Shown piece after piece: positions 228 through 63,615 of a DNA stretch of 64,000 bases. Positions within the stretch are counted from its first letter, which is position 1. Each line of letters starts with the position of its first letter. The translations under genes were made by a program, and so were the position numbers. This DNA is from Candidatus Paceibacter sp. (GTDB lineage Bacteria > Patescibacteriota > Patescibacteriia > S139-126), in NCBI GenBank assembly GCA_020724865.1, contig DYGA01000003.1, positions 63,901-127,900 of the forward strand, given 5' to 3'. Under the pieces are notes generated by a model, which saw only the letters and a program-made list of their open reading frames with translations, was not told the DNA's origin and ran no database searches.

Positions 228-1508
228 ATGCCAGATTTAAAAGAGAGTGAACCAAAAGAAAAAATTGATTCAGTAAATCCAAAGTATGCTGAAATTAGGG
301 AATCAGTATTAGCAGCTATTGAAGCTGATACTAAGCAGAAAGATAACGATACAAAAAAATCGATAATATCGGATGATAAAAAAGATTTTCTCCCAGATAA
401 AAAAATTGTAAACAAAAAAATTTCTAAATCAAAGCCAAAAATTAAAACTATGGAGAAAACTAATACTATCAGCAAAACCGAAGATCAATTTGAGTTTAAA
501 AATAATAAAAATAAAACCGAGTCAATAACTGGAATTGATTCTGAAAACAATCAAAAAATTAACAATGTTCAAGACTTAGTTAAAGATAAAAAGGCTAAGA
601 AAAAAGTTTTAAAAGTATTAGTGTCTAGTATATTTTTTACAATTTTAATTTTATTTTTGCTGTTGGTGGGGGGAATTTATATTTTTAAATGGGATCAGAC
701 CGCTATTCGAAAAATTGTAAATATTTTACCTTTGCCGGTTGGTTTTTATGATTATAAGCCTATTAGTTTAAAAAGTTATTGGGATGATATAGATACTTTA
801 CAATATTTTTATACTAATCAGGTTGCTCAAGGGAATTATAAAGAAGTGCCACCCGAAAGTGAACTTAAAAATATTGTTTGGGATAGATTGTTGAATATGA
901 AAATTATAGAGGATTTAGCCAAAAAATATGATGTCTCAGTTACCCCCGAAGAAATTAATATGGAGGTTGATTCAATAGTAAACGAAGCCGGCAGTAGGGA
1001 AGCTCTAGCTGATAATTTATATGAATTTTATCATTGGGATATTCAAACATTTAAAACCAGAGTAATTGGACCATATATTTTGGAGGATAAAGTGCGTAAT
1101 AAAATATCCAGCGATCCAACTTATGATCAAGCGGCTCAAACCGAAGCTCAACAAATTTTAACTGAAGTCAAACAGGCGCCAGAAAAATTTGCTGAAATTG
1201 CCGCGCGGGTTAGTGATGATCCTGGTTCGGCCAGCAGGGGAGGAGATTTAGGCTACTTCAATCAGGGAGTTATGGTTCCAGAATTCGAACAAGCAGCTTT
1301 CAATTTACAAGTAGGGGAAATTAGTGATTTAGTCAAAACCCAGTTTGGTTATCATATTATAAAAGTTGACGATCGGATTGTTTCTTCAACCAATGATAAA
1401 GAGGTACAAATTAAAGCCAGTCATATTTTGATTGCCCCGATGTCGTTTGCTGAAATTTTAGAAAAATATAAGCAAGATAAAAAGATAATTCGATTATTGG
1501 ATAAATAA
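228..1508 (+). CDS. Membrane-anchored PpiC/parvulin-type peptidyl-prolyl isomerase (PrsA/SurA-like foldase), with Lys-rich N-terminus and one TM helix
   Basis: Parvulin signature SDDPGSASRGGDLGYFNQGVMVPEFEQAAF...TQFGYHIIKV. A TM segment lies near aa 130-150. The SHILIA strand sits after the GYHII motif instead of before it (see findings). Confidence 0.8.
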   Translation: MPDLKESEPKEKIDSVNPKYAEIRESVLAAIEADTKQKDNDTKKSIISDDKKDFLPDKKIVNKKISKSKPKIKTMEKTNTISKTEDQFEFKNNKNKTESITGIDSENNQKINNVQDLVKDKKAKKKVLKVLVSSIFFTILILFLLLVGGIYIFKWDQTAIRKIVNILPLPVGFYDYKPISLKSYWDDIDTLQYFYTNQVAQGNYKEVPPESELKNIVWDRLLNMKIIEDLAKKYDVSVTPEEINMEVDSIVNEAGSREALADNLYEFYHWDIQTFKTRVIGPYILEDKVRNKISSDPTYDQAAQTEAQQILTEVKQAPEKFAEIAARVSDDPGSASRGGDLGYFNQGVMVPEFEQAAFNLQVGEISDLVKTQFGYHIIKVDDRIVSSTNDKEVQIKASHILIAPMSFAEILEKYKQDKKIIRLLDK

Positions 1509-1795: not shown

Positions 1796-2917
1796 ATGCC
1801 AAGCAAAAAACAGATTACACCCTTATTTTTAACAATTTTTTTAATGCTATTTTTTGGGCGTATAAATAATGTTAACGCTAATATTTTAAGCTTTGTTGAC
1901 ACATCTAAAACTGAACAACTCGTAAGTTTAGGTGAAAATCAAGCCAGTTTACATTTTTTTGCAGGTTCTTTATCCCAACCTTCACGGGTAGCTTTTTGGA
2001 TTGATCAAACAATACTAACAACTGAAAAACAGCTGAGCCCAATTTATGCTTGGCAAATATTAGATGCAGATATTGTTGATAAAGTATTTTTAGAAATACC
2101 TTTTGATTTTGTGGTTAATGATTGGCAAGTCGTTTATTCCCCCGATGGGGAAAATTTTTTACCAACTACTTATGAAATAAATAAACAATCAGTAATTATT
2201 CCTTTACCTGCTAAAAATGGAAAAATTTATATAACTTCCTTGGTTTTGTCTGAAGTGAAGATTAATTTAGATAATGCTACCGTCAAAAAAGGTTATCCGG
2301 TAAAAACTCCTGACGGTTTTTTTAATTTTTATATTTTACCAGATGCTCTGCAACAATCTGCTGAAATTACCATCAAACCTTTAAATTTGGCTGGTTTTAA
2401 TATAAATCCAGGTTTGAAGCTTATTTCGCCAATTTATTATTTTTATATAGATGCTGCTGATGGTGAATTTCCTCAAAAAGATTTACCAATTGATATAAAA
2501 TATTTTGGAGATAATGTGAATGTTAAAGATATTTATTATTGGGATAATATTAATATGACGTGGCTACCATCACCATCAATTACTCGCTATAATGAAGGAG
2601 TGGTTAGAACTCTAACTCATCAGCGGGAAATGATTTTAGCTGTTTTTTCTAAAGAAATAATGGAAAAGGGTATAGCTAGTTGGTATCGTTATAAAGGTGG
2701 TGATTTTGCAGCTTCGCCTGATTATGCTAAAGGTACAAAATTAAAAGTTACGAATTTGGCCAATCACAAGTCAGTTATTGTGGCGGTTAATGATTATGGC
2801 CCAGACCGTAGTGTTCATCCGGAAAGAATTATTGATTTAGATCGAGTAGCTTTTGCTAAAATAGCTGATCCTAGCGCTGGGGTAATTGTAGTATCAGTGG
2901 AAGAAAATTATTATTAA
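1796..2917 (+). CDS. Secreted RlpA-like lytic transglycosylase family protein (C-terminal double-psi beta-barrel domain)
   Basis: N-terminal signal/TM. C-terminus ASWYRYKGG...TKLKVTNLANHKSVIVAVNDYGPD...RIIDLDRVAF matches the RlpA DPBB consensus (SWYG...T.V.V.NDRGP...R.IDLS..AF). A TATAAT box lies ~15 nt upstream of the ATG. Confidence 0.7.
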   Translation: MPSKKQITPLFLTIFLMLFFGRINNVNANILSFVDTSKTEQLVSLGENQASLHFFAGSLSQPSRVAFWIDQTILTTEKQLSPIYAWQILDADIVDKVFLEIPFDFVVNDWQVVYSPDGENFLPTTYEINKQSVIIPLPAKNGKIYITSLVLSEVKINLDNATVKKGYPVKTPDGFFNFYILPDALQQSAEITIKPLNLAGFNINPGLKLISPIYYFYIDAADGEFPQKDLPIDIKYFGDNVNVKDIYYWDNINMTWLPSPSITRYNEGVVRTLTHQREMILAVFSKEIMEKGIASWYRYKGGDFAASPDYAKGTKLKVTNLANHKSVIVAVNDYGPDRSVHPERIIDLDRVAFAKIADPSAGVIVVSVEENYY

Positions 2918-57282: not shown

Positions 57283-57504
57283 ATGCTGATTAAACTAGGA
57301 AAATATAAGCACTATAAAGGGAATTATTATAATGTAATAGGTGTTGCTAAACATAGTGAAACCATGGAAGAATTGGTAGTTTATCAAGCTAGCTATGGAA
57401 ACAAAGATTTATACGTTAGACCACTTAAAATGTTTGTTGAAAAAGTTATGATTAATGGGAAAAAAGTTGCCAGGTTTAAATATATAGGTAATTTAAAAAA
57501 ATGA
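57283..57504 (+). CDS. DUF1653-like small protein (73 aa)
   Basis: [44 protein letters not shown] resembles the DUF1653 consensus (YRHYKG..Y.V.G.A.HSET.E..VVY..LYG...WVRP..MF). Confidence 0.45.
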
Positions 57505-58250
57505 AAAAAAATTTTTTTATTTTTTTGTTTATTTTTATTTTATTGCCAATTCAAGTTTGGGCCGAAGATACATCAGGATTAGATGTTGATCATGATGGAT
57601 TGACTAATTCGGAAGAAATAAATAAATATTATACTGATTATTTAAATTCAGATACTGATGGTGATGGTTATTTTGATGGTGAAGAAATTGCCAAACATTT
57701 TTCCCCGCATGCTAAAGCTAAAACACTTTCTCAGTATGATTTAGATGGTGATGGGCTATCTGATTGGTTAGAAATTCAATTTGGGACAAATTTAAATAAT
57801 TATGATACCGATGGAGATGGTTTTTCTGATTATAATGAAGTTTTAAATAGTTATGATCCTTTAAATTCTAAACCTATAAAATTACCTCAGGAAATAATTA
57901 TTGATACTACCAAACAAACTCTTACCGCCAAGCTCAATAATATATCTTTAGTAATTTTTCCTGTATCGACAGGTAAAGCAGGTTATGAAACTACCCGCGG
58001 TGAATATGAAATTAATAATAAGATTCCTCGAGCATGGTCAAAAACCTATGGTTTATGGATGCCTTATTGGATGAGTTTTATAGGTTCGCAATACGGAATT
58101 CATGAATTACCTGAATGGCCCGGAGGAATAAAAGAAGGACAAAACCATCTTGGCACTCCAGTATCGCATGGATGTGTAAGGTTAGGCATCGGTCCAGCTG
58201 AATGGCTATATAATTGGGCTAATATTGGCACAAAAGTAAAAGTTAAATAA
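57501..58250 (+). CDS. Secreted L,D-transpeptidase (YkuD domain) with N-terminal Asp-rich Ca-binding (thrombospondin type-3/dockerin-like) repeats
   Basis: Signal peptide. Four DxDxDGxxDxxE repeats ([48 protein letters not shown]). Catalytic HELP...[11 protein letters not shown] motif. Confidence 0.75.
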
Positions 58251-58339: not shown

Positions 58340-60043
58340 ATGTCTAACCCCAAAAACAATACGGCAAAATTAAGTGCAAAACAAAAGCTTTGGTTAAAAG
58401 CAATTTTTATTATTGTTTTGTTTTTATTTTTTGGTGGGATAGTTTATCCAGTGTTACCTGCCGGCGTACCTGGTAAAACTTGGTTTGATTCGTTTCAACC
58501 AAAATTAGGTCTTGATTTGCAAGGCGGAGCGCATCTGGTTTTTGAAGCAGACACTTCACAGATAAAAGATAGTGACAAAGCTTCAGCTGTTGAAGGTGTG
58601 CGCGATGTGATCGAGCGTAGAGTCAATACATTTGGTATAGCTGAACCTTTAATCCAAACCAATAAAGAAGGAGATAATTATCGCGTTATTGTTGAGCTAG
58701 CTGGTGTATTTGATATTAGTGAAGCCATAAAACAAATAGGAGAAACACCTTTACTTGAATTTAAAGAACAAAATCCCAATTTTACTGGTGAAATAAAATT
58801 AACCCCTGAACAGCAACAAGTATTAGACCAGTTAAATAATCAAGCCAAAGAAAAAGCCTGGGAGATTTTAAATAAAATAAAGGCAGGAGAAGATTTTGCC
58901 CAATTGGCAAAAGAAAATTCCCAAGATCCAGGAAGTAAAGATCAGGGCGGTAATATTAGTTTTGTTAAAAGAGGCGTTTTAGTTCCGGAATATGAACAAG
59001 TTATTTTTGATCAATTAGCAGATGGTGAAATTGCTCCTACTCCCATAGAAACACAATTTGGTTATCATATTATTCAAAAATTGTCGGAGAAAGGTTTTGG
59101 TGATGCTAGAGAAGTTGAATCTCGACATATTTTAATTGCTAAAGTATCTCCTCAAGATTTATTTGCTTCAGAGGATCAATGGATAAATACAGAACTGTCT
59201 GGAAAACATTTAGATCGTGCTCAGTTAGTTTTTAATCAAAATACCAACGCTCCTGAAGTTAGTTTGACTTTCAATGAAGAAGGTAAAAGATTGTTTGCCG
59301 AAATAACCAAAAAAAATCTAAATAAGCCAGTGGCGATATTTTTGGACGGTCAGCCTATATCAATACCTACTGTGCAGAATGAAATTACTGAAGGACAAGC
59401 TATAATCAGTGGCGATTTTACAATTTCAGAAGCAAAACTATTAGCTCAACGGCTAAATGCTGGCGCTTTACCGGTACCAATTAAATTAGTAACTCAGCAA
59501 ACAGTTGGCCCATCTTTAGGATCTAAAAGTATACAACAAAGTATTTTTGCTGGTATTATCGGTATTGTTGCTGTAGTTTTGTTTATGATTTTATACTATC
59601 GCTTGTTGGGATTATTTGCGGCCCTATCTTTAGGTATGTATGGAATCATAGTGTTTGGATTATTCCAATTTATTCCAGTCACTTTAACTTTAGCTGGTAT
59701 CGCTGGATTTATTTTGTCACTTGGTATGGCGGTTGATGCCAATGTTTTAATTTTTGAAAGGGTTAAAGAAGAATTAAAAAAAGGCGAACCTCTTGATCTC
59801 GCCTTGACCGATGGTTTTAAACGAGCATGGCCATCGATCAGAGATTCAAATTTATCTACTTTGATTACCACCGCAATTTTATTTTGGTTTGGTACTTCAA
59901 TTATTAAAGGTTTTGCTTTAACCCTGAGTATTGGTGTAATAGTCAGTATGTTTAGCGCAATATTTATTACCAAAACATTGCTAGAAATTTTTATGGTCAA
60001 AAAGCTAGAAAAATACAAATGGTTGTTTGGATATTTTAAATAA
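58340..60043 (+). CDS. secD: Protein translocase subunit SecD with a circularly permuted parvulin PPIase domain inserted in the periplasmic P1 region
   Basis: SecD motifs LGLDLQGGAHLVFEAD and RRVNTFGIAEPLIQ, the P1 base ...AIFLDGQPISIPTV...AGALPVPI, and a C-terminal 6-TM bundle. Residues ~145-275 carry a parvulin signature (DFAQLAKENSQDPGSKDQGGNISF...TQFGYHIIQK...SRHILIAKV). Confidence 0.85.
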   Translation: MSNPKNNTAKLSAKQKLWLKAIFIIVLFLFFGGIVYPVLPAGVPGKTWFDSFQPKLGLDLQGGAHLVFEADTSQIKDSDKASAVEGVRDVIERRVNTFGIAEPLIQTNKEGDNYRVIVELAGVFDISEAIKQIGETPLLEFKEQNPNFTGEIKLTPEQQQVLDQLNNQAKEKAWEILNKIKAGEDFAQLAKENSQDPGSKDQGGNISFVKRGVLVPEYEQVIFDQLADGEIAPTPIETQFGYHIIQKLSEKGFGDAREVESRHILIAKVSPQDLFASEDQWINTELSGKHLDRAQLVFNQNTNAPEVSLTFNEEGKRLFAEITKKNLNKPVAIFLDGQPISIPTVQNEITEGQAIISGDFTISEAKLLAQRLNAGALPVPIKLVTQQTVGPSLGSKSIQQSIFAGIIGIVAVVLFMILYYRLLGLFAALSLGMYGIIVFGLFQFIPVTLTLAGIAGFILSLGMAVDANVLIFERVKEELKKGEPLDLALTDGFKRAWPSIRDSNLSTLITTAILFWFGTSIIKGFALTLSIGVIVSMFSAIFITKTLLEIFMVKKLEKYKWLFGYFK

Positions 60044-60962
60044 ATTTATGCATTTTCCATTTATTAAAAAAAGAAAATATTGGTATATACTGTCTGGATT
60101 ATTAACTGTAATTTCTTTGTTTTCCATATTAGTTTGGGGATTTAAACCAGGAATTGATTTTACGGGCGGTTCGTTATTGGAAATACAATTTACCGCACAA
60201 GCACCCAGAGTTGAAGAATTAAATGATCAAGTTAAAGAATTAAATATAGGAAATTTTAGTATTCAACCTTCAGAAAATAATACTTATATTTTTAGACAAA
60301 AAGATTTTTCAGAAGATGAACACCAGCAGTTGATAAATAAAATTACCGAATATTATCAAAATAAATATCAAGGTGAAGTAATTCAATTACGTTTTGAATC
60401 CATCGGACCAAGTATTGGTTTGGAATTAAGAAATAAAGCTCTTACCACTACAATAATAACTTTGCTTTTCATTATCTTGTTTATCGCTTATGCATTTAGA
60501 AAAGTATCGCAACCAGTAGCATCGTGGAAGTATGGTTTAGCCGCATTAGTTGCTTTATTTCATGACATAATTATTTTACTAGGTGTTTTTTCGATATTAG
60601 GTAAATTTTTGGGTTATGAGATAAACATATTATTTTTAACCGCATTACTCACAACTTTGGGATATTCTGTTAACGACACAATAGTAGTTTTTGATCGTAT
60701 TCGTGAAAATATTTATACTCGACATGAAAATTTTCCTGATGCTGTTGAAGATTCTATGAATCAAACTTTTGCTCGTTCGATTAATACCTCATTCACCACT
60801 TTGTTAGTTTTATTTGCGGTTTATTTTTTTGGCGGAGACACAATTAAAGAGTTTGTTTTGGCGCTGATCGTTGGTATCACCATTGGGACATATTCATCAA
60901 TTTTTATAGCCTCACCAATTTTAGTTGATTGGTATAAGTTCTCACAAAAAAGAAAAAATTAA
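60027..60962 (+). CDS. secF: Protein translocase subunit SecF
   Basis: GIDFTGGS motif, a C-terminal 6-TM bundle with the LHDIIILLGVFS region. Overlaps secD by 17 nt. Confidence 0.85.
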   Translation: MDILNKFMHFPFIKKRKYWYILSGLLTVISLFSILVWGFKPGIDFTGGSLLEIQFTAQAPRVEELNDQVKELNIGNFSIQPSENNTYIFRQKDFSEDEHQQLINKITEYYQNKYQGEVIQLRFESIGPSIGLELRNKALTTTIITLLFIILFIAYAFRKVSQPVASWKYGLAALVALFHDIIILLGVFSILGKFLGYEINILFLTALLTTLGYSVNDTIVVFDRIRENIYTRHENFPDAVEDSMNQTFARSINTSFTTLLVLFAVYFFGGDTIKEFVLALIVGITIGTYSSIFIASPILVDWYKFSQKRKN

Positions 60963-61482: not shown

Positions 61483-63615
61483 TTGATGTATAAATCAATT
61501 ATGTTGCTTATGAATACAGAAAGTAATTTAAACGAAGAATTTAAGAATCGACTAGAAAAATTGAACGGTTTTAAAAAAGCTGGTTTTAATCCTTACCCAG
61601 AAAGATTTGAAAAAAAACACGAAATTCAAGAGCTACTTGAGTATGCAGAAAATAATCAAATTTTTTCAGCCACGGAAATAAATCGAGAAACCAATGAATT
61701 TGTAACTGCGGGCAGAATTATGACTTTGCGTGAACATGGCAAAATTACTTTTGCCAATCTCCAAGACTTTACAGGCAAAATACAAATATCTTTTTCTCAA
61801 AATATTTTAGGAAGTGATTTGTATTCACTAATTAAATTTTTTGATTTGGGTGATTTTATCGGAGTGACGGGAAAAATTTTTAAAACTAACAAGGGCGAAA
61901 TAACTTTAATGGTTTATGATTTTAGTTTTTTAGGCAAAGCATTTCGTCAGTTACCAGAAAAATTTCATGGTCTTAAAGATAGAGAAATTTTGTACCGACA
62001 AAGATATTTAGATCTTTTAGTCAACCCAGATACTAAGGAAAGATTTATCCAAAGGTCAAATATAATTAATTTTTTACGAAATTATTTATTGAAAAATAAG
62101 TTTTTTGAAGTAGAAACACCTATTTTAACTCCTACAGCTTCCGGTGCTTTAGCCAAACCATTTATAACTCACCATAACGCTTTGGATACTGATTTTTATT
62201 TAAGAATCGCCCCAGAAACATATTTAAAAAGACTGATTGTTGGTGGTTATGAAAAAGTTTTTGAATTTGCCAAATGTTTTCGTAACGAAGGGATAGACCC
62301 ATCACATCTCCAAGAGTTTACAATGCTTGAATATTATGTTGCTTATTGGAATTGGGAAGATAATAAAAATTTTACTGAAAAGTTGGTGTCCGACTTGGTT
62401 TTTTATATTTTTGGAAAATATAAAATCAATTTATTTGGTAAAGAGTTAGATTTTACTCCGCCATTTACCGTTATATCTATGCGCGATGTTATTTGGGAAA
62501 ATTCAAAAATAGATATAGACGATGTTAAAGATAAAGCAGATTTACTATTAAAAATCAAACAAGCCGGTATTAATTTAGAAAATACAGAAAAATTAGGTTT
62601 GGGTAATTTAATCGATTCTCTGTATAAAAAAGTTGCTCGAGATAAAATTATAAAACCAACATTTTTAATCAATCATCCCATTAGTCTTTCTCCTTTAGCC
62701 CGTGCTAATGATTTTAATAAAAATATTGCCGACAGGTTTCAATTAATTGTTAATGGTTGGGAGATAGTAAATGCTTATTCTGAGTTAGTAGATCCACTGG
62801 AACAGAAACAAAGGTTAATTGAGCAAAACGAACTAAAAAATAAAGGCGATGAAGAAGCTATGATGATGGATGATGATTATATCAAGGCTATGGAATACGG
62901 CATGCCACCTATATCAGGGTGGGGGATGGGTATTGATAGGATTTGTACTTTATTTAGTGAACAAGAAAATTTAAAAGATGTAGTTTTATTTCCATTACTT
63001 AAAAATAAAAATGATTTGCCTACAAATGTATTAAATGAACAAATATCTGATCCGGGTATAAGTTATGAAGAGGCAGTGAAGTTATTGAACAAATATATAC
63101 CGCCAACCGATCCTTTATATAAACATTCTTTAGCCGTTGAATTTATAATGCGTTCATTAGCTGACAAATTAAAACAAAATCAAACAGTTTGGGGTATTGC
63201 CGGTTTATTACATGATTTAGATTATTTAGAAACAAAAGAACAACCGCATTTACATGGCATAAAATCAGAAAAAATCCTTCAAGATCACGGTTTACATCCA
63301 GAAATAATTTATGCCATTAAAGCTCATAATTATTTACATGAATTATCTTTACATACTCTACTAGCAAAAGCCCTATATTCCGTTGAAGAATTAGCTGGTT
63401 TAATTACAGCTTGTGCATTAGTACAACCTGACAAATCTTTATCATCTGTAACCCTAGATTCGTTGTTAAAAAAATTTAAACAAAAGTCATTTGCTTCTGG
63501 CGTCAACAGGTCAATTATTCTAAAATCAGAAGAATATTTAAATATGAGTTTAAAGGAAGTTATGTCAATAGCCTTGCAAGCTATGCAAAATAACAGTAAA
63601 AAATTGGGTTTATAG
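61483..63615 (+). CDS. lysS: Lysyl-tRNA synthetase (class II) fused to a C-terminal YqeK-like HD phosphohydrolase domain
   Basis: LysRS motifs: the anticodon-binding OB domain, FRNEG (motif 2 region) and GMGIDRICTLF (motif 3). A ~190-aa extension carries HD signatures H-SLAVEF, GLLHDLDY, HLHG, KAHNY. The likely true start is at 61501 or 61510 (TATAAA box 7 nt upstream); the track start at 61483 is probably too early. Confidence 0.85.
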   Translation: MMYKSIMLLMNTESNLNEEFKNRLEKLNGFKKAGFNPYPERFEKKHEIQELLEYAENNQIFSATEINRETNEFVTAGRIMTLREHGKITFANLQDFTGKIQISFSQNILGSDLYSLIKFFDLGDFIGVTGKIFKTNKGEITLMVYDFSFLGKAFRQLPEKFHGLKDREILYRQRYLDLLVNPDTKERFIQRSNIINFLRNYLLKNKFFEVETPILTPTASGALAKPFITHHNALDTDFYLRIAPETYLKRLIVGGYEKVFEFAKCFRNEGIDPSHLQEFTMLEYYVAYWNWEDNKNFTEKLVSDLVFYIFGKYKINLFGKELDFTPPFTVISMRDVIWENSKIDIDDVKDKADLLLKIKQAGINLENTEKLGLGNLIDSLYKKVARDKIIKPTFLINHPISLSPLARANDFNKNIADRFQLIVNGWEIVNAYSELVDPLEQKQRLIEQNELKNKGDEEAMMMDDDYIKAMEYGMPPISGWGMGIDRICTLFSEQENLKDVVLFPLLKNKNDLPTNVLNEQISDPGISYEEAVKLLNKYIPPTDPLYKHSLAVEFIMRSLADKLKQNQTVWGIAGLLHDLDYLETKEQPHLHGIKSEKILQDHGLHPEIIYAIKAHNYLHELSLHTLLAKALYSVEELAGLITACALVQPDKSLSSVTLDSLLKKFKQKSFASGVNRSIILKSEEYLNMSLKEVMSIALQAMQNNSKKLGL

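What the first reader, a model, noticed from the sequence alone, without database searches (positions are those of the whole stretch)
58772..59165. SecD carries a parvulin PPIase domain in place of its P1 head, and the domain is circularly permuted like the stand-alone paralog at 228..1508
The SecD ORF 58340..60043 has normal SecD N-terminal (LGLDLQGG, RRVNTFGIAEPLIQ, TPLLEFKEQ) and P1-base/TM regions. Between them, where the P1 head subdomain normally sits, is a full PpiC/parvulin signature (EDFAQLAKENSQDPGSKDQGGNISFVKRGVLVPEYEQVIF...TQFGYHIIQK). In canonical parvulins such as E. coli PpiC, the beta-strand xxHILV precedes this block. Here SRHILIAKV follows the GYHII motif. The same reversed order occurs in the membrane-anchored PpiC protein at 228..1508 (TQFGYHIIKV...IKASHILIAP), and there is no HIL strand upstream in either protein. 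This argues for a circularly permuted parvulin fold that duplicated into SecD. A foldase built into the SecDF periplasmic head, the part that contacts emerging preproteins, would couple translocation to prolyl isomerisation or chaperoning. I am not aware that this arrangement has been described.
Basis: partly seen in the sequence, partly recalled or inferred. Interest (0 to 1): 0.65.

Follow-up and report, generated by a model that had tools for sequence, protein, structure and literature searches.

The report
SecD with built-in permuted parvulin foldase
The protein-export subunit SecD of this small-genome (Patescibacteria-type) bacterium has a prolyl-isomerase (parvulin) domain inserted next to its mobile outer head, with the first strand moved to the end; this puts in one chain a helper-translocon partnership that other bacteria form between separate proteins.

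Summary
The parvulin signature inside an intact secD ORF (58340..60043) is real. The claim that it replaces the P1 head is wrong. The head is present (aa 284-379). The ~110-125 aa parvulin domain (aa ~146-272) sits in the linker between the P1-base strand and the head.

The circular permutation is supported by several lines:
- The Pfam Rotamase match starts at model position 14, and there is no upstream strand.
- The trailing EVESRHILIAK aligns to the N-terminal strand of solved parvulins.
- Moving that strand to the front restores a full-length model match.
- H243 and H263 are invariant in 69 homologs.
- AlphaFold2 gives one compact domain (pLDDT 96.9) with a beta4-to-trailing-strand hairpin.
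- Coevolution places the strand between beta4 and beta2.

The stand-alone SurA/PrsA-like protein (228..1508) has the same order.

The fusion is common in Patescibacteria: at least ~70 clusters at 50% identity, some with two modules. Saccharibacteria, Nomurabacteria and non-CPR SecDs lack it.

Five full-text searches found no description of either feature.

Function as a translocation-coupled foldase or chaperone is inferred, not shown. I rate it a new variant of known kinds.

The parts
58340..60043 (+). secD ORF, 567 aa, uninterrupted; stop codon included
   Evidence: Listed as one ORF. TIGR01129 scores 389.5 bits against a cutoff of 244.4. The best 120 homologs all share the same architecture.
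58499..58774 (+). P1 base, N-terminal part (Sec_GG motif LGLDLQGG and SecD_1st, aa 54-145), ending in the strand TPLLEFKEQ
   Evidence: PF07549 matches aa 54-73 and PF21760 matches aa 85-145. The region aligns to T. thermophilus SecDF residues 24-126.
58775..59155 (+). Inserted parvulin (PpiC-type PPIase) domain, aa ~146-272, with permuted strand order
58805..58882 (+). Long entry helix, aa 156-181 (parvulin alpha1 with an N-terminal extension). No beta strand precedes it.
   Evidence: DSSP on both models gives H156-181 and coil at aa 145-155. Conservation upstream of L154 is low.
58925..58927 (+). D196 codon (the Asp of the S-x-D motif ENSQDPGS, at the position of Pin1 Cys113 by homology)
   Evidence: Invariant in 69 SecD homologs and in 102 SecD plus PrsA-like sequences. 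The equivalence to Pin1 residue numbers rests on general knowledge of parvulins.
59060..59092 (+). Parvulin beta4, aa 241-251 (GYHIIQKLSEK), containing invariant H243
   Evidence: DSSP gives E241-251. G241, H243 and I245 are invariant.
59111..59140 (+). Relocated beta1 strand, aa 258-267 (EVESRHILIA), containing invariant H263. It forms a hairpin with beta4.
   Evidence: DSSP gives E258-267 with pLDDT ~93-98. H263 is invariant and I264/L265 are 99% conserved. The strand aligns to the N-terminal beta1 of PrsA 4wo7, PEB4 3rfw, HP0175 5ez1 and NmPin 2m08. Coevolving pairs are K251-E258, S249-E260, L248-R262, N205-E260 and A169-I266.
59189..59476 (+). P1 head subdomain, aa 284-379. It is retained, not replaced.
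   Evidence: PF22599 matches at 103.1 bits, E = 1.1e-29, model positions 19-114. The insert-less SecD L022 matches the same model range. The region aligns to T. thermophilus SecDF from residue 148.
59486..59989 (+). SecD membrane domain (SecD_SecF_C, aa 383-550), including invariant D466, which aligns with T. thermophilus SecDF D340
   Evidence: PF02355 match. In the alignment to 3aqp, AVDAN pairs with AVDGN. D466 is invariant.
60027..60962 (+). secF, overlapping the end of secD by 17 nt
   Evidence: Listed. TIGR00966 scores 290.8 bits against a cutoff of 160.
228..1508 (+). Stand-alone membrane-anchored SurA/PrsA-like protein (426 aa) with the same permuted parvulin. Parvulin core is aa 298-382 (nt 1119-1373). 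Trailing strand EVQIKASHILIAP is aa 392-404 (nt 1401-1439). A C-terminal tail follows.
   Evidence: PF00639 scores 97.6 bits at model positions 13-97, and the SurA_N-type models match weakly. The domain is collinear with the SecD insert at 41% identity. The de-permuted construct extends the match to model positions 1-97. 119 of 120 homologs have the same order. The N-terminal part aligns to the SurA N-domain.

Best explanation
This is a genuine SecD subunit of the proton-driven SecDF export motor from a low-GC Patescibacteria-type genome.

Architecture (shown):
- One complete parvulin-type peptidyl-prolyl isomerase domain is inserted into the short linker that joins the P1-base strand (TPLLEFKEQ) to the P1 head.
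- The head, the base and the membrane domain are all intact.

The domain is circularly permuted relative to canonical parvulins (supported by prediction and coevolution):
- It starts with helix alpha1 and runs through beta2, alpha4, beta3 and beta4 (GYHII).
- It then turns back through a 6-residue hairpin into the strand EVESRHILIA.
- That strand fills the central beta1 slot between beta4 and beta2 and supplies the second active-site histidine.
- The chain therefore enters and leaves the domain side by side at the beta1/alpha1 junction. This geometry lets the domain sit as a plug-in on a host loop.

Mechanism (inferred):
- The domain rides on or beside the mobile P1 head, which is thought to capture the emerging polypeptide.
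- There it binds unfolded segments and/or isomerises Xaa-Pro bonds as the chain leaves SecYEG.
- This would be a covalent version of the partnership between SecDF and separate membrane-anchored parvulin chaperones (PpiD, PrsA, Mpn444).

The same permuted module is used in this genome's own SurA/PrsA-like anchored chaperone.
For: Architecture:
- Pfam gives SecD_1st at aa 85-145, Rotamase at 165-246, P1_head at 284-379 and SecD_SecF_C at 383-550.
- T. thermophilus SecDF residues 24-126 align to aa 46-152, and residues 148-425 align to aa 273-551.
- The insert-less SecD L022 has a 28-aa linker where this protein has 138 aa.

Parvulin fold:
- The isolated insert has pLDDT 96.9 and pTM 0.89.

Permutation:
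- The model match begins at position 14 of 97.
- Moving aa 255-272 in front of alpha1 extends the match to model position 1. The score rises from 75.2 to 78.1 bits (Rotamase) and from 81.1 to 86.3 bits (Rotamase_3). For the paralog the rises are 102.1 to 106.1 and 107.5 to 114.4 bits.
- In phmmer alignments the trailing EVESRHILIAK pairs with the N-terminal beta1 of PrsA, PEB4, HP0175 and NmPin, which lies ~70 residues upstream of their GYHII.
- Both models show the hairpin E241-251 / E258-267.
- Mean-field DCA on 267 sequences ranks beta4/trailing-strand pairs in antiparallel register (251-258, 249-260, 248-262), a beta2 contact (205-260) and alpha1 contacts (169-266, 180-264) among the top 30. 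It also ranks entry/exit contacts 159-271 and 162-274.

Conservation:
- F186, D196, G204, G241, H243, I245 and H263 are invariant across 102 SecD-insert and PrsA-like sequences.

Spread:
- All of the best 120 SecD homologs carry the Rotamase domain.
- 71 of the best 150 representatives at 50% identity carry P1 base followed by parvulin.

Functional precedent:
- The parvulin lipoprotein Mpn444 crosslinks to SecD (bioRxiv 10.1101/2024.09.05.611430).
Against: - AlphaFold2 and DCA use the same kind of alignment signal, so they are not fully independent.
- PPIase activity and substrate contact are untested.
- Several chaperone-embedded parvulin domains (PpiD, SurA P1) are reported to be catalytically inactive or dispensable.
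- This window's protein reads GGNISF where 78-97% of homologs read GGDLGF.
- The genome also encodes a separate anchored parvulin chaperone, so the insert is not needed to supply that function.
- The orientation of the insert relative to the head and the SecY exit is unknown. The full-length model has pTM of only 0.57.
Confidence: 0.8

Rival explanations
1. The domain is a non-catalytic module. It is a permuted parvulin fold kept only as a substrate-holding chaperone surface or as a docking or structural element on P1, as proposed for the parvulin domains of PpiD and SurA P1. It would have no prolyl isomerase role.
Against: Both histidines, the Asp of S-x-D, and the hydrophobic positions around the proline pocket are invariant or above 90% conserved across 102 sequences. 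That is not expected for a purely structural module. The best sequence matches are to active parvulins such as PrsA, PpiC and NmPin.
Confidence: 0.3
2. There is no true permutation. The trailing HIL strand is a leftover first strand of a lost second parvulin domain (as at the SurA P1-P2 junction), or it belongs to the P1 head. The parvulin core would simply lack beta1.
For: The query aligns collinearly with the SurA P1 core plus the beta1 of P2 (EVHARHILL). Many related SecDs carry two tandem modules.
Against: - The strand has pLDDT 97-98 within a single compact domain modelled on its own.
- It is only a 6-residue turn away from beta4.
- It coevolves with beta4, beta2 and alpha1.
- Its His, Ile and Leu are as conserved as the core motifs.
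- The P1_head model starts only at aa 284, as in insert-less SecDs.
- A parvulin sheet lacking its central strand would not be expected to superpose at 1.2-1.7 A on complete parvulins.
- A tandem origin is compatible with, and is the classical route to, a circular permutation.
Confidence: 0.05
3. The ORF is an artefact: a frameshift or an assembly chimera joining a secD fragment to a ppiC gene.
For: None found.
Against: It is a single ORF with SecD sequence on both sides of the insert. The identical protein was seen on several contigs from several sources. More than 120 homolog clusters, and loci in many independent genome assemblies, have the same layout.
Confidence: 0.01

Closest known systems
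SecDF of Thermus thermophilus and Deinococcus radiodurans (PDB 3AQP, 5YHF, 5XAM/5XAN/5XAP)
   Same: Same subunit and fold: Sec_GG motif, P1 base and head, and the RND-type membrane domain with the conserved TM4 Asp (D466 aligns with T. thermophilus D340). Foldseek E = 1e-25 to 1e-26. phmmer E = 9.6e-86.
   Different: In T. thermophilus about 21 residues (127-147) link the base strand to the head. Here a ~125-residue parvulin domain occupies that link. SecD and SecF are separate genes here and fused in Thermus.
Membrane-anchored or lipid-anchored parvulin chaperones that work at the Sec translocon: E. coli PpiD (with YfgM), Bacillus PrsA, Mycoplasma Mpn444
   Same: A parvulin domain on the outer face of the membrane, placed at the exit of the translocon. 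PpiD contacts SecD's periplasmic domain (PMC9643414). Mpn444 crosslinks to SecD (bioRxiv 10.1101/2024.09.05.611430). The sequence and fold of the insert are closest to PrsA-type parvulins (36-42% identity).
   Different: Those are separate proteins that associate non-covalently, and their parvulin domain has the canonical beta1-first order, inserted into a SurA-like chaperone domain. Here the domain is part of the SecD chain, has no chaperone N/C domain around it, and is permuted.
Bacteroides fragilis periplasmic PPIase, the target of BfUbb (PDB 8HM3/8HM4)
   Different: It is a soluble SurA-like chaperone with two parvulin modules. It has an upstream His-less beta1-like segment (VEVQIIT), seen in a close homolog reconstructed from a frameshifted contig. 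Its connectivity may therefore be a strand swap between tandem modules rather than a single permuted domain. I could not inspect the coordinates or read the primary paper.
E. coli SurA, P1-P2 tandem parvulin junction (PDB 1M5Y)
   Same: The linear order P1 core, linker, then beta1 of P2 (EVHARHILL) is collinear with the insert. This offers the classical duplication-then-truncation route to the permutation. The stand-alone protein at 228..1508 also aligns to the SurA N-domain.
   Different: In SurA the linker is 14 residues. The SurA entries superpose over only 84-97 residues at up to 3.7 A. The isolated P1 and P2 domains are ordinary beta1-first parvulins.

Membership tests
SecD (protein translocase subunit of SecDF) | Scores above the curated cutoff of the SecD equivalog model | tested here: met
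   TIGR01129 scores 389.5 bits against a cutoff of 244.4, covering aa 56-548.
SecD (protein translocase subunit of SecDF) | P1 periplasmic domain with both base and head subdomains | tested here: met
   PF21760 matches aa 85-145 and PF22599 matches aa 284-379 (E = 1.1e-29). The model has beta-rich segments at aa 281-389.
SecD (protein translocase subunit of SecDF) | RND-type membrane domain with the conserved TM4 Asp used for proton coupling (T. thermophilus D340) | tested here: met
   PF02355 matches aa 383-550. D466 aligns with T. thermophilus D340 and is invariant. Proton coupling itself was not tested.
SecD (protein translocase subunit of SecDF) | Partner secF gene adjacent | tested here: met
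   ORF 60027..60962 scores 290.8 bits on TIGR00966 against a cutoff of 160.
Parvulin (PpiC-type) PPIase domain | Sequence match to PF00639/PF13616 above the gathering score | tested here: met
   71.3 and 77.0 bits against cutoffs of 21.7 and 22.5.
Parvulin (PpiC-type) PPIase domain | Parvulin alpha/beta fold | tested here: met
   [not shown]
Parvulin (PpiC-type) PPIase domain | Active-site residues: two histidines on neighbouring strands plus Asp/Cys on the S-x-D/C loop | tested here: met
   H243, H263 and D196 are invariant in 69 and in 102 sequences. Their spatial adjacency is inferred from the hairpin, not measured.
Parvulin (PpiC-type) PPIase domain | Canonical order beta1-alpha1-alpha2-alpha3-beta2-alpha4-beta3-beta4 | tested here: not met
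   The model is matched from position 14 only, beta1 follows beta4, and the de-permuted construct restores positions 1-94.
Parvulin (PpiC-type) PPIase domain | Peptidyl-prolyl cis/trans isomerase activity | not testable with these tools
   Needs an enzyme assay on the purified insert.
Circularly permuted variant of a known fold | All elements of the fold are present, with the N-terminal element relocated to the C-terminus and occupying its original place in space | tested here: met
   Supporting results: reversed-order alignments, score gain on de-permutation, hairpin in two models, and coevolution with beta4, beta2 and alpha1. A sequence-order-independent superposition could not be run because no coordinates are available.
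SurA/PrsA/PpiD-type chaperone (for the stand-alone protein 228..1508) | SurA-like N-terminal chaperone domain and C-terminal tail flanking the parvulin domain | tested here: inconclusive
   SurA_N_3, SurA_N_2 and SurA_N score 23.4, 22.1 and 18.6 bits, below their cutoffs of 27-31. phmmer aligns aa ~187-295 of the protein to the SurA N-domain at 11.6 bits. Homologs carry PF13624, PF13623 and PF09312. No structure was predicted for it.

The most novel reading that the evidence does not exclude
In a large part of the Patescibacteria, SecDF would be a proton-driven translocation motor with an active foldase mounted on its moving head. The permuted parvulin would isomerise or hold prolyl segments of the chain as the head swings, so that export and the first folding step are mechanically coupled in one polypeptide. 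The permuted parvulin unit (core plus trailing beta1) would be an unrecognised, reusable building block. It would be found singly or in tandem in SecD, in the CPR anchored SurA/PrsA-like chaperones, and, as strand-exchanged tandems, in Bacteroidota SurA-like PPIases such as 8HM3.
Probability: 0.3. Interest if true: 0.7.

Novelty: new variant of a known kind. Interest (0 to 1): 0.55.

Why it matters
How SecDF hands the emerging chain to extracytoplasmic chaperones is still unclear. PpiD is known to touch SecD, but the geometry is unresolved (PMC9643414).

A natural fusion places a parvulin domain at a defined point, the base-to-head linker of P1. That is 'Rosetta stone' evidence that the partnership is direct and that the P1 head region is where substrates are met.

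It also offers a compact, single-chain system for structural and crosslinking work.

The permuted parvulin adds a new topology to a much-studied enzyme fold and shows how moving the chain ends makes a domain insertable.

For the biology of Patescibacteria, it suggests that export-coupled folding is hard-wired in organisms with very small genomes and few chaperones.

Tried and rejected
1. Replacement of the P1 head: rejected.
2. Frameshift or two-gene artefact: rejected.
3. An upstream degenerate beta1 (GEIKLT, aa 150-155): rejected. The segment is coil in both models and poorly conserved.
4. Whole-protein fold search: dominated by SecDF and RND pumps, so uninformative for the insert. I re-modelled the insert alone instead.
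5. The afdb50 fold library was not available, so no survey of predicted structures for other permuted parvulins was possible.
I reconstructed a close Bacteroides homolog by hand from a frameshifted contig. That sequence is approximate.
7. Pairwise alignment of a de-permuted construct to an E. coli PpiC sequence recalled from memory did not place beta1 in register and was not used.
8. A strict regular expression for the P1-base motif undercounted fusions. It was replaced by phmmer domain hits.
9. A 'both histidines together' rule was tried to decide which strand belongs to which core in the two-module SecDs and in the Bacteroides protein. It conflicts with the tight-hairpin argument in the SecD tandems, so it was left unresolved.
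10. The primary paper for 8HM3/8HM4 is not in the searchable library.
Full report
**1. What is in the sequence**

The region 58340..60043 is one uninterrupted ORF of 567 aa on the + strand. It is followed by secF (60027..60962), which overlaps it by 17 nt.

It scores well above the curated SecD threshold: TIGR01129 gives 389.5 bits against a cutoff of 244.4. The next ORF scores as SecF: TIGR00966 gives 290.8 bits against 160.

Pfam divides the protein as follows:
- Sec_GG, aa 54-73
- SecD_1st (P1 base), aa 85-145
- Rotamase / Rotamase_3, aa 165-247 (71-77 bits, cutoffs ~22)
- SecDF_P1_head, aa 284-379 (103 bits, E = 1.1e-29)
- SecD_SecF_C, aa 383-550

The finding's coordinates (58772..59165) correspond to aa 145-275, which is the parvulin region. 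The identical protein occurs on several contigs from several sources.

The window is ~31% GC. The neighbours are ordinary housekeeping genes: a YkuD L,D-transpeptidase with TSP3 repeats upstream, and GreA and a LysRS-HD fusion downstream.

**2. The head is not replaced**

- The P1-head model is matched strongly.
- Against T. thermophilus SecDF (3AQP), residues 24-126 align to aa 46-152 and residues 148-425 align to aa 273-551. About 21 Thermus residues therefore correspond to about 120 residues here.
- The insert-less SecD of a Nomurabacteria genome (L022) matches the head model over the same positions 19-114. It has a 28-aa linker between SecD_1st and the head, where this protein has 138 aa.

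The parvulin domain is therefore a net insertion of ~110 aa. It lies in the linker between the base strand TPLLEFKEQ and the start of the head (W-x-N-T-E-L-S-G-K).

The membrane domain keeps the Asp that aligns with T. thermophilus D340. This is D466, which is invariant.

**3. The insert is a parvulin domain with its first strand at the end**

The Rotamase model is matched only from position 14 of 97. The piece that is missing is the N-terminal strand, which in canonical parvulins reads x-V-x-a-s-H-I-L-v.

No such strand lies upstream.
- The 20 residues after TPLLEFKEQ are poorly conserved.
- They are coil followed by a long helix (H156-181) in both AlphaFold2 models.

Instead, EVESRHILIAKV follows GYHIIQK after a short turn.

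Sequence tests:
- **De-permutation.** I cut aa 255-272 and pasted them in front of alpha1. The Pfam match then extends to model position 1. The score rises from 75.2 to 78.1 bits (Rotamase) and from 81.1 to 86.3 bits (Rotamase_3). The same operation on the stand-alone protein gives 102.1 to 106.1 and 107.5 to 114.4 bits, with full coverage of positions 1-97.
- **Reversed-order alignments.** With a short query spanning beta3 to the trailing strand, phmmer aligns GYHII to the C-terminal strand of PrsA (4wo7), PEB4 (3rfw), HP0175 (5ez1) and NmPin (2m08). It aligns EVESRHILIAK to their N-terminal strands (KIRASHILVAD, RVQAKHILVAT, EAHARHILVK, KIKCSHILVSK), which lie ~70 residues upstream.
- **Conservation.** In 69 SecD homologs of 55-89% identity, H243 and H263 are both invariant and I264/L265 are 99% conserved. 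Across 102 SecD inserts and stand-alone homologs, the invariant positions are F186, D196, G204, G241, H243, I245 and H263.

Structure tests:
- **Full-length model.** Mean pLDDT is 83.9, and 90-94 over aa 160-270. The elements are H156-181, H186-193, E205-210, H216-225, E241-251 and E258-267, followed by the head.
- **Insert alone (aa 150-275).** It gives pLDDT 96.9 and pTM 0.89 with the same elements. The trailing strand has pLDDT 97-98.
- **Inference on strand placement.** The core strands beta2, beta3 and beta4 sit in their canonical places. The only remaining strand is joined to beta4 by six residues. It must therefore fill the central beta1 slot.
- **Coevolution check.** Mean-field DCA on 267 unique permuted domains (Neff ~208) agrees. 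Among the top 30 pairs are:
  - K251-E258, S249-E260 and L248-R262, in an antiparallel register with beta4
  - N205-E260, a contact with beta2
  - A169-I266 and I180-I264, contacts with alpha1
  - Q159-P271 and L162-L274, showing that the chain enters and leaves the domain side by side

I could not open the coordinates. A His-His distance and a permutation-aware superposition therefore remain to be done.

**4. The stand-alone protein**

ORF 228..1508 (426 aa) has these parts:
- a Lys-rich N-terminal region
- a membrane anchor
- a weak SurA_N-type region
- a parvulin core at aa 298-382 (model positions 13-97)
- the strand EVQIKASHILIAP
- a short tail

It aligns collinearly with the SecD insert at 41% identity, trailing strand included. 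Its N-terminal part aligns with the SurA N-domain.

Of its 120 best homologs, mostly annotated as Patescibacteria peptidylprolyl isomerase or PrsA, 119 have the H-I-L strand downstream only. The permuted module is thus the rule in this lineage's anchored chaperone as well.

**5. Distribution**

All of the best 120 SecD homologs carry the Rotamase domain. Where they are named, they come from Komeilibacteria, Parcubacteria or the 'Patescibacteria group'. Of these, 116 have the downstream-only order under a 45-aa search window. Three more have the same order with a longer hairpin linker of up to ~45 aa.

A search of 1.84 billion representatives with aa 85-300 gave 56 proteins at E ≤ 1e-30. Of the best 150, 71 have a P1-base hit followed by a parvulin hit.

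A scan of species-representative genomes found three groups:
- **Single-module fusions** in Buchananbacteria, Moranbacteria, Kerfeldbacteria and unnamed Patescibacteria.
- **Two-module fusions** in Uhrbacteria, Magasanikbacteria, Parcubacteria and Peregrinibacteria. These have a degenerate first core, a middle SHLLICY strand, a second core with GYHLI, and a trailing strand in which the His is often Arg. Pfam reads the middle strand plus the second core as a full-length canonical Rotamase, positions 1-96.
- **No insert** in Saccharibacteria, Nomurabacteria, Gastranaerophilales, Chloroflexota, cyanobacteria and others.

One 'Lysobacteraceae' contig carrying the fusion has 30% GC and is probably mis-binned.

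**6. Origin of the permutation**

The insert aligns collinearly with the SurA P1 core plus the first strand of P2. This is the pattern expected if a tandem duplication lost its first strand and its second core, which is the classical route to circular permutation.

The best structural match is not a canonical parvulin. It is the B. fragilis periplasmic PPIase 8HM3/8HM4.
- 112 is exactly the span from the start of the entry helix to the end of the trailing strand in the model.
- The local sequence is GFHIIQLIEKRGDRINTRHILL, with only a four-residue turn.
- Its first module also matches the Rotamase model only from position 13.

A close homolog, rebuilt from a frameshifted contig, has this order: a SurA-like N-domain, a His-less VEVQIIT segment, core A, NTRHILL, a degenerate core B, then a C-terminal tail.

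A solved structure therefore probably already contains the beta4-to-beta1 hairpin, possibly as a strand exchange between tandem modules. I could not verify this in coordinates or read the primary paper.

**7. How it most likely works**

Shown:
- a complete SecD with a complete parvulin domain in the base-to-head linker
- permuted connectivity
- conserved active-site residues
- wide conservation of the fusion

Inferred:
- SecDF uses the proton gradient to move its P1 head and pull the emerging chain.
- The insert rides at the root of that head. There it binds unfolded segments and/or catalyses Xaa-Pro isomerisation as the chain leaves SecYEG.

Precedents are non-covalent.
- PpiD contacts SecD's periplasmic domain and cooperates with SecDF (PMC9643414).
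- The parvulin lipoprotein Mpn444 crosslinks to SecD (bioRxiv 10.1101/2024.09.05.611430).

Whether the domain is catalytic or only a holdase is open. PpiD's parvulin domain is of questioned importance, and this window's GGNIS loop departs from the family's GGDLG.

**8. Novelty**

Five full-text searches found no description of a SecD-parvulin fusion or of a permuted parvulin. The searched terms were SecD+parvulin; parvulin+'circular permutation'; parvulin+'circularly permuted'; SecD/PPIase domain/Patescibacteria; and SecDF+PpiC+fusion. The library does not cover most subscription journals.

The proteins themselves are abundant in public data and are annotated simply as SecD.

Both components are well known. 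What is new is the arrangement: an insertion site in P1 and a permuted topology. I rate it a new variant of known kinds and of moderate interest.

Noticed in passing
L006, L007, L009, L010, L013-L018, L029, L046 (SecD ORFs); P0116: Many Patescibacteria SecDs (Uhrbacteria, Magasanikbacteria, Parcubacteria, Peregrinibacteria) carry two tandem parvulin modules at the same site. The layout is a degenerate first core without an upstream strand, a middle strand SHLLICY, a second core with GYHLI, and a trailing strand whose His is often Arg. It is unclear whether these are two serial permuted units or a canonical domain nested in the hairpin of a permuted one. Some of these proteins are SecD-SecF fusions of ~1000-1150 aa.
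   Followed up: partly
[not shown]
   Followed up: partly
P0052, P0061, P0117: In some SecD homologs the hairpin between beta4 and the relocated strand is expanded from 6 to ~35-45 residues of acidic, low-complexity sequence. The loop evidently tolerates insertions.
   Followed up: no
L003 (JAACEG010000012.1) and L010 (DATJFD010000021.1): A contig labelled Lysobacteraceae carries the single-module fusion but has 30% GC, so it is probably a mis-binned Patescibacteria contig. A 64% GC contig labelled Candidatus Binatia carries a two-module fusion and might be a real occurrence outside Patescibacteria.
   Followed up: no
window 228..620: The stand-alone parvulin protein has a ~130-residue Lys/Asp/Asn-rich, low-complexity N-terminal region before its membrane anchor. 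It has no family match.
   Followed up: no
window 61483..63615: Lysyl-tRNA synthetase (OB anticodon-binding domain plus class II core) with a C-terminal HD phosphohydrolase domain at aa 546-622 of the same 710-aa ORF.
   Followed up: no
window 57501..58250: Immediately upstream of secD is a secreted YkuD-type L,D-transpeptidase preceded by bacterial TSP3 calcium-binding repeats.
   Followed up: no
window 1796..2917: A 373-aa secreted protein with a C-terminal DPBB_1 (RlpA-like lytic transglycosylase) domain lies next to the stand-alone parvulin gene.
   Followed up: no
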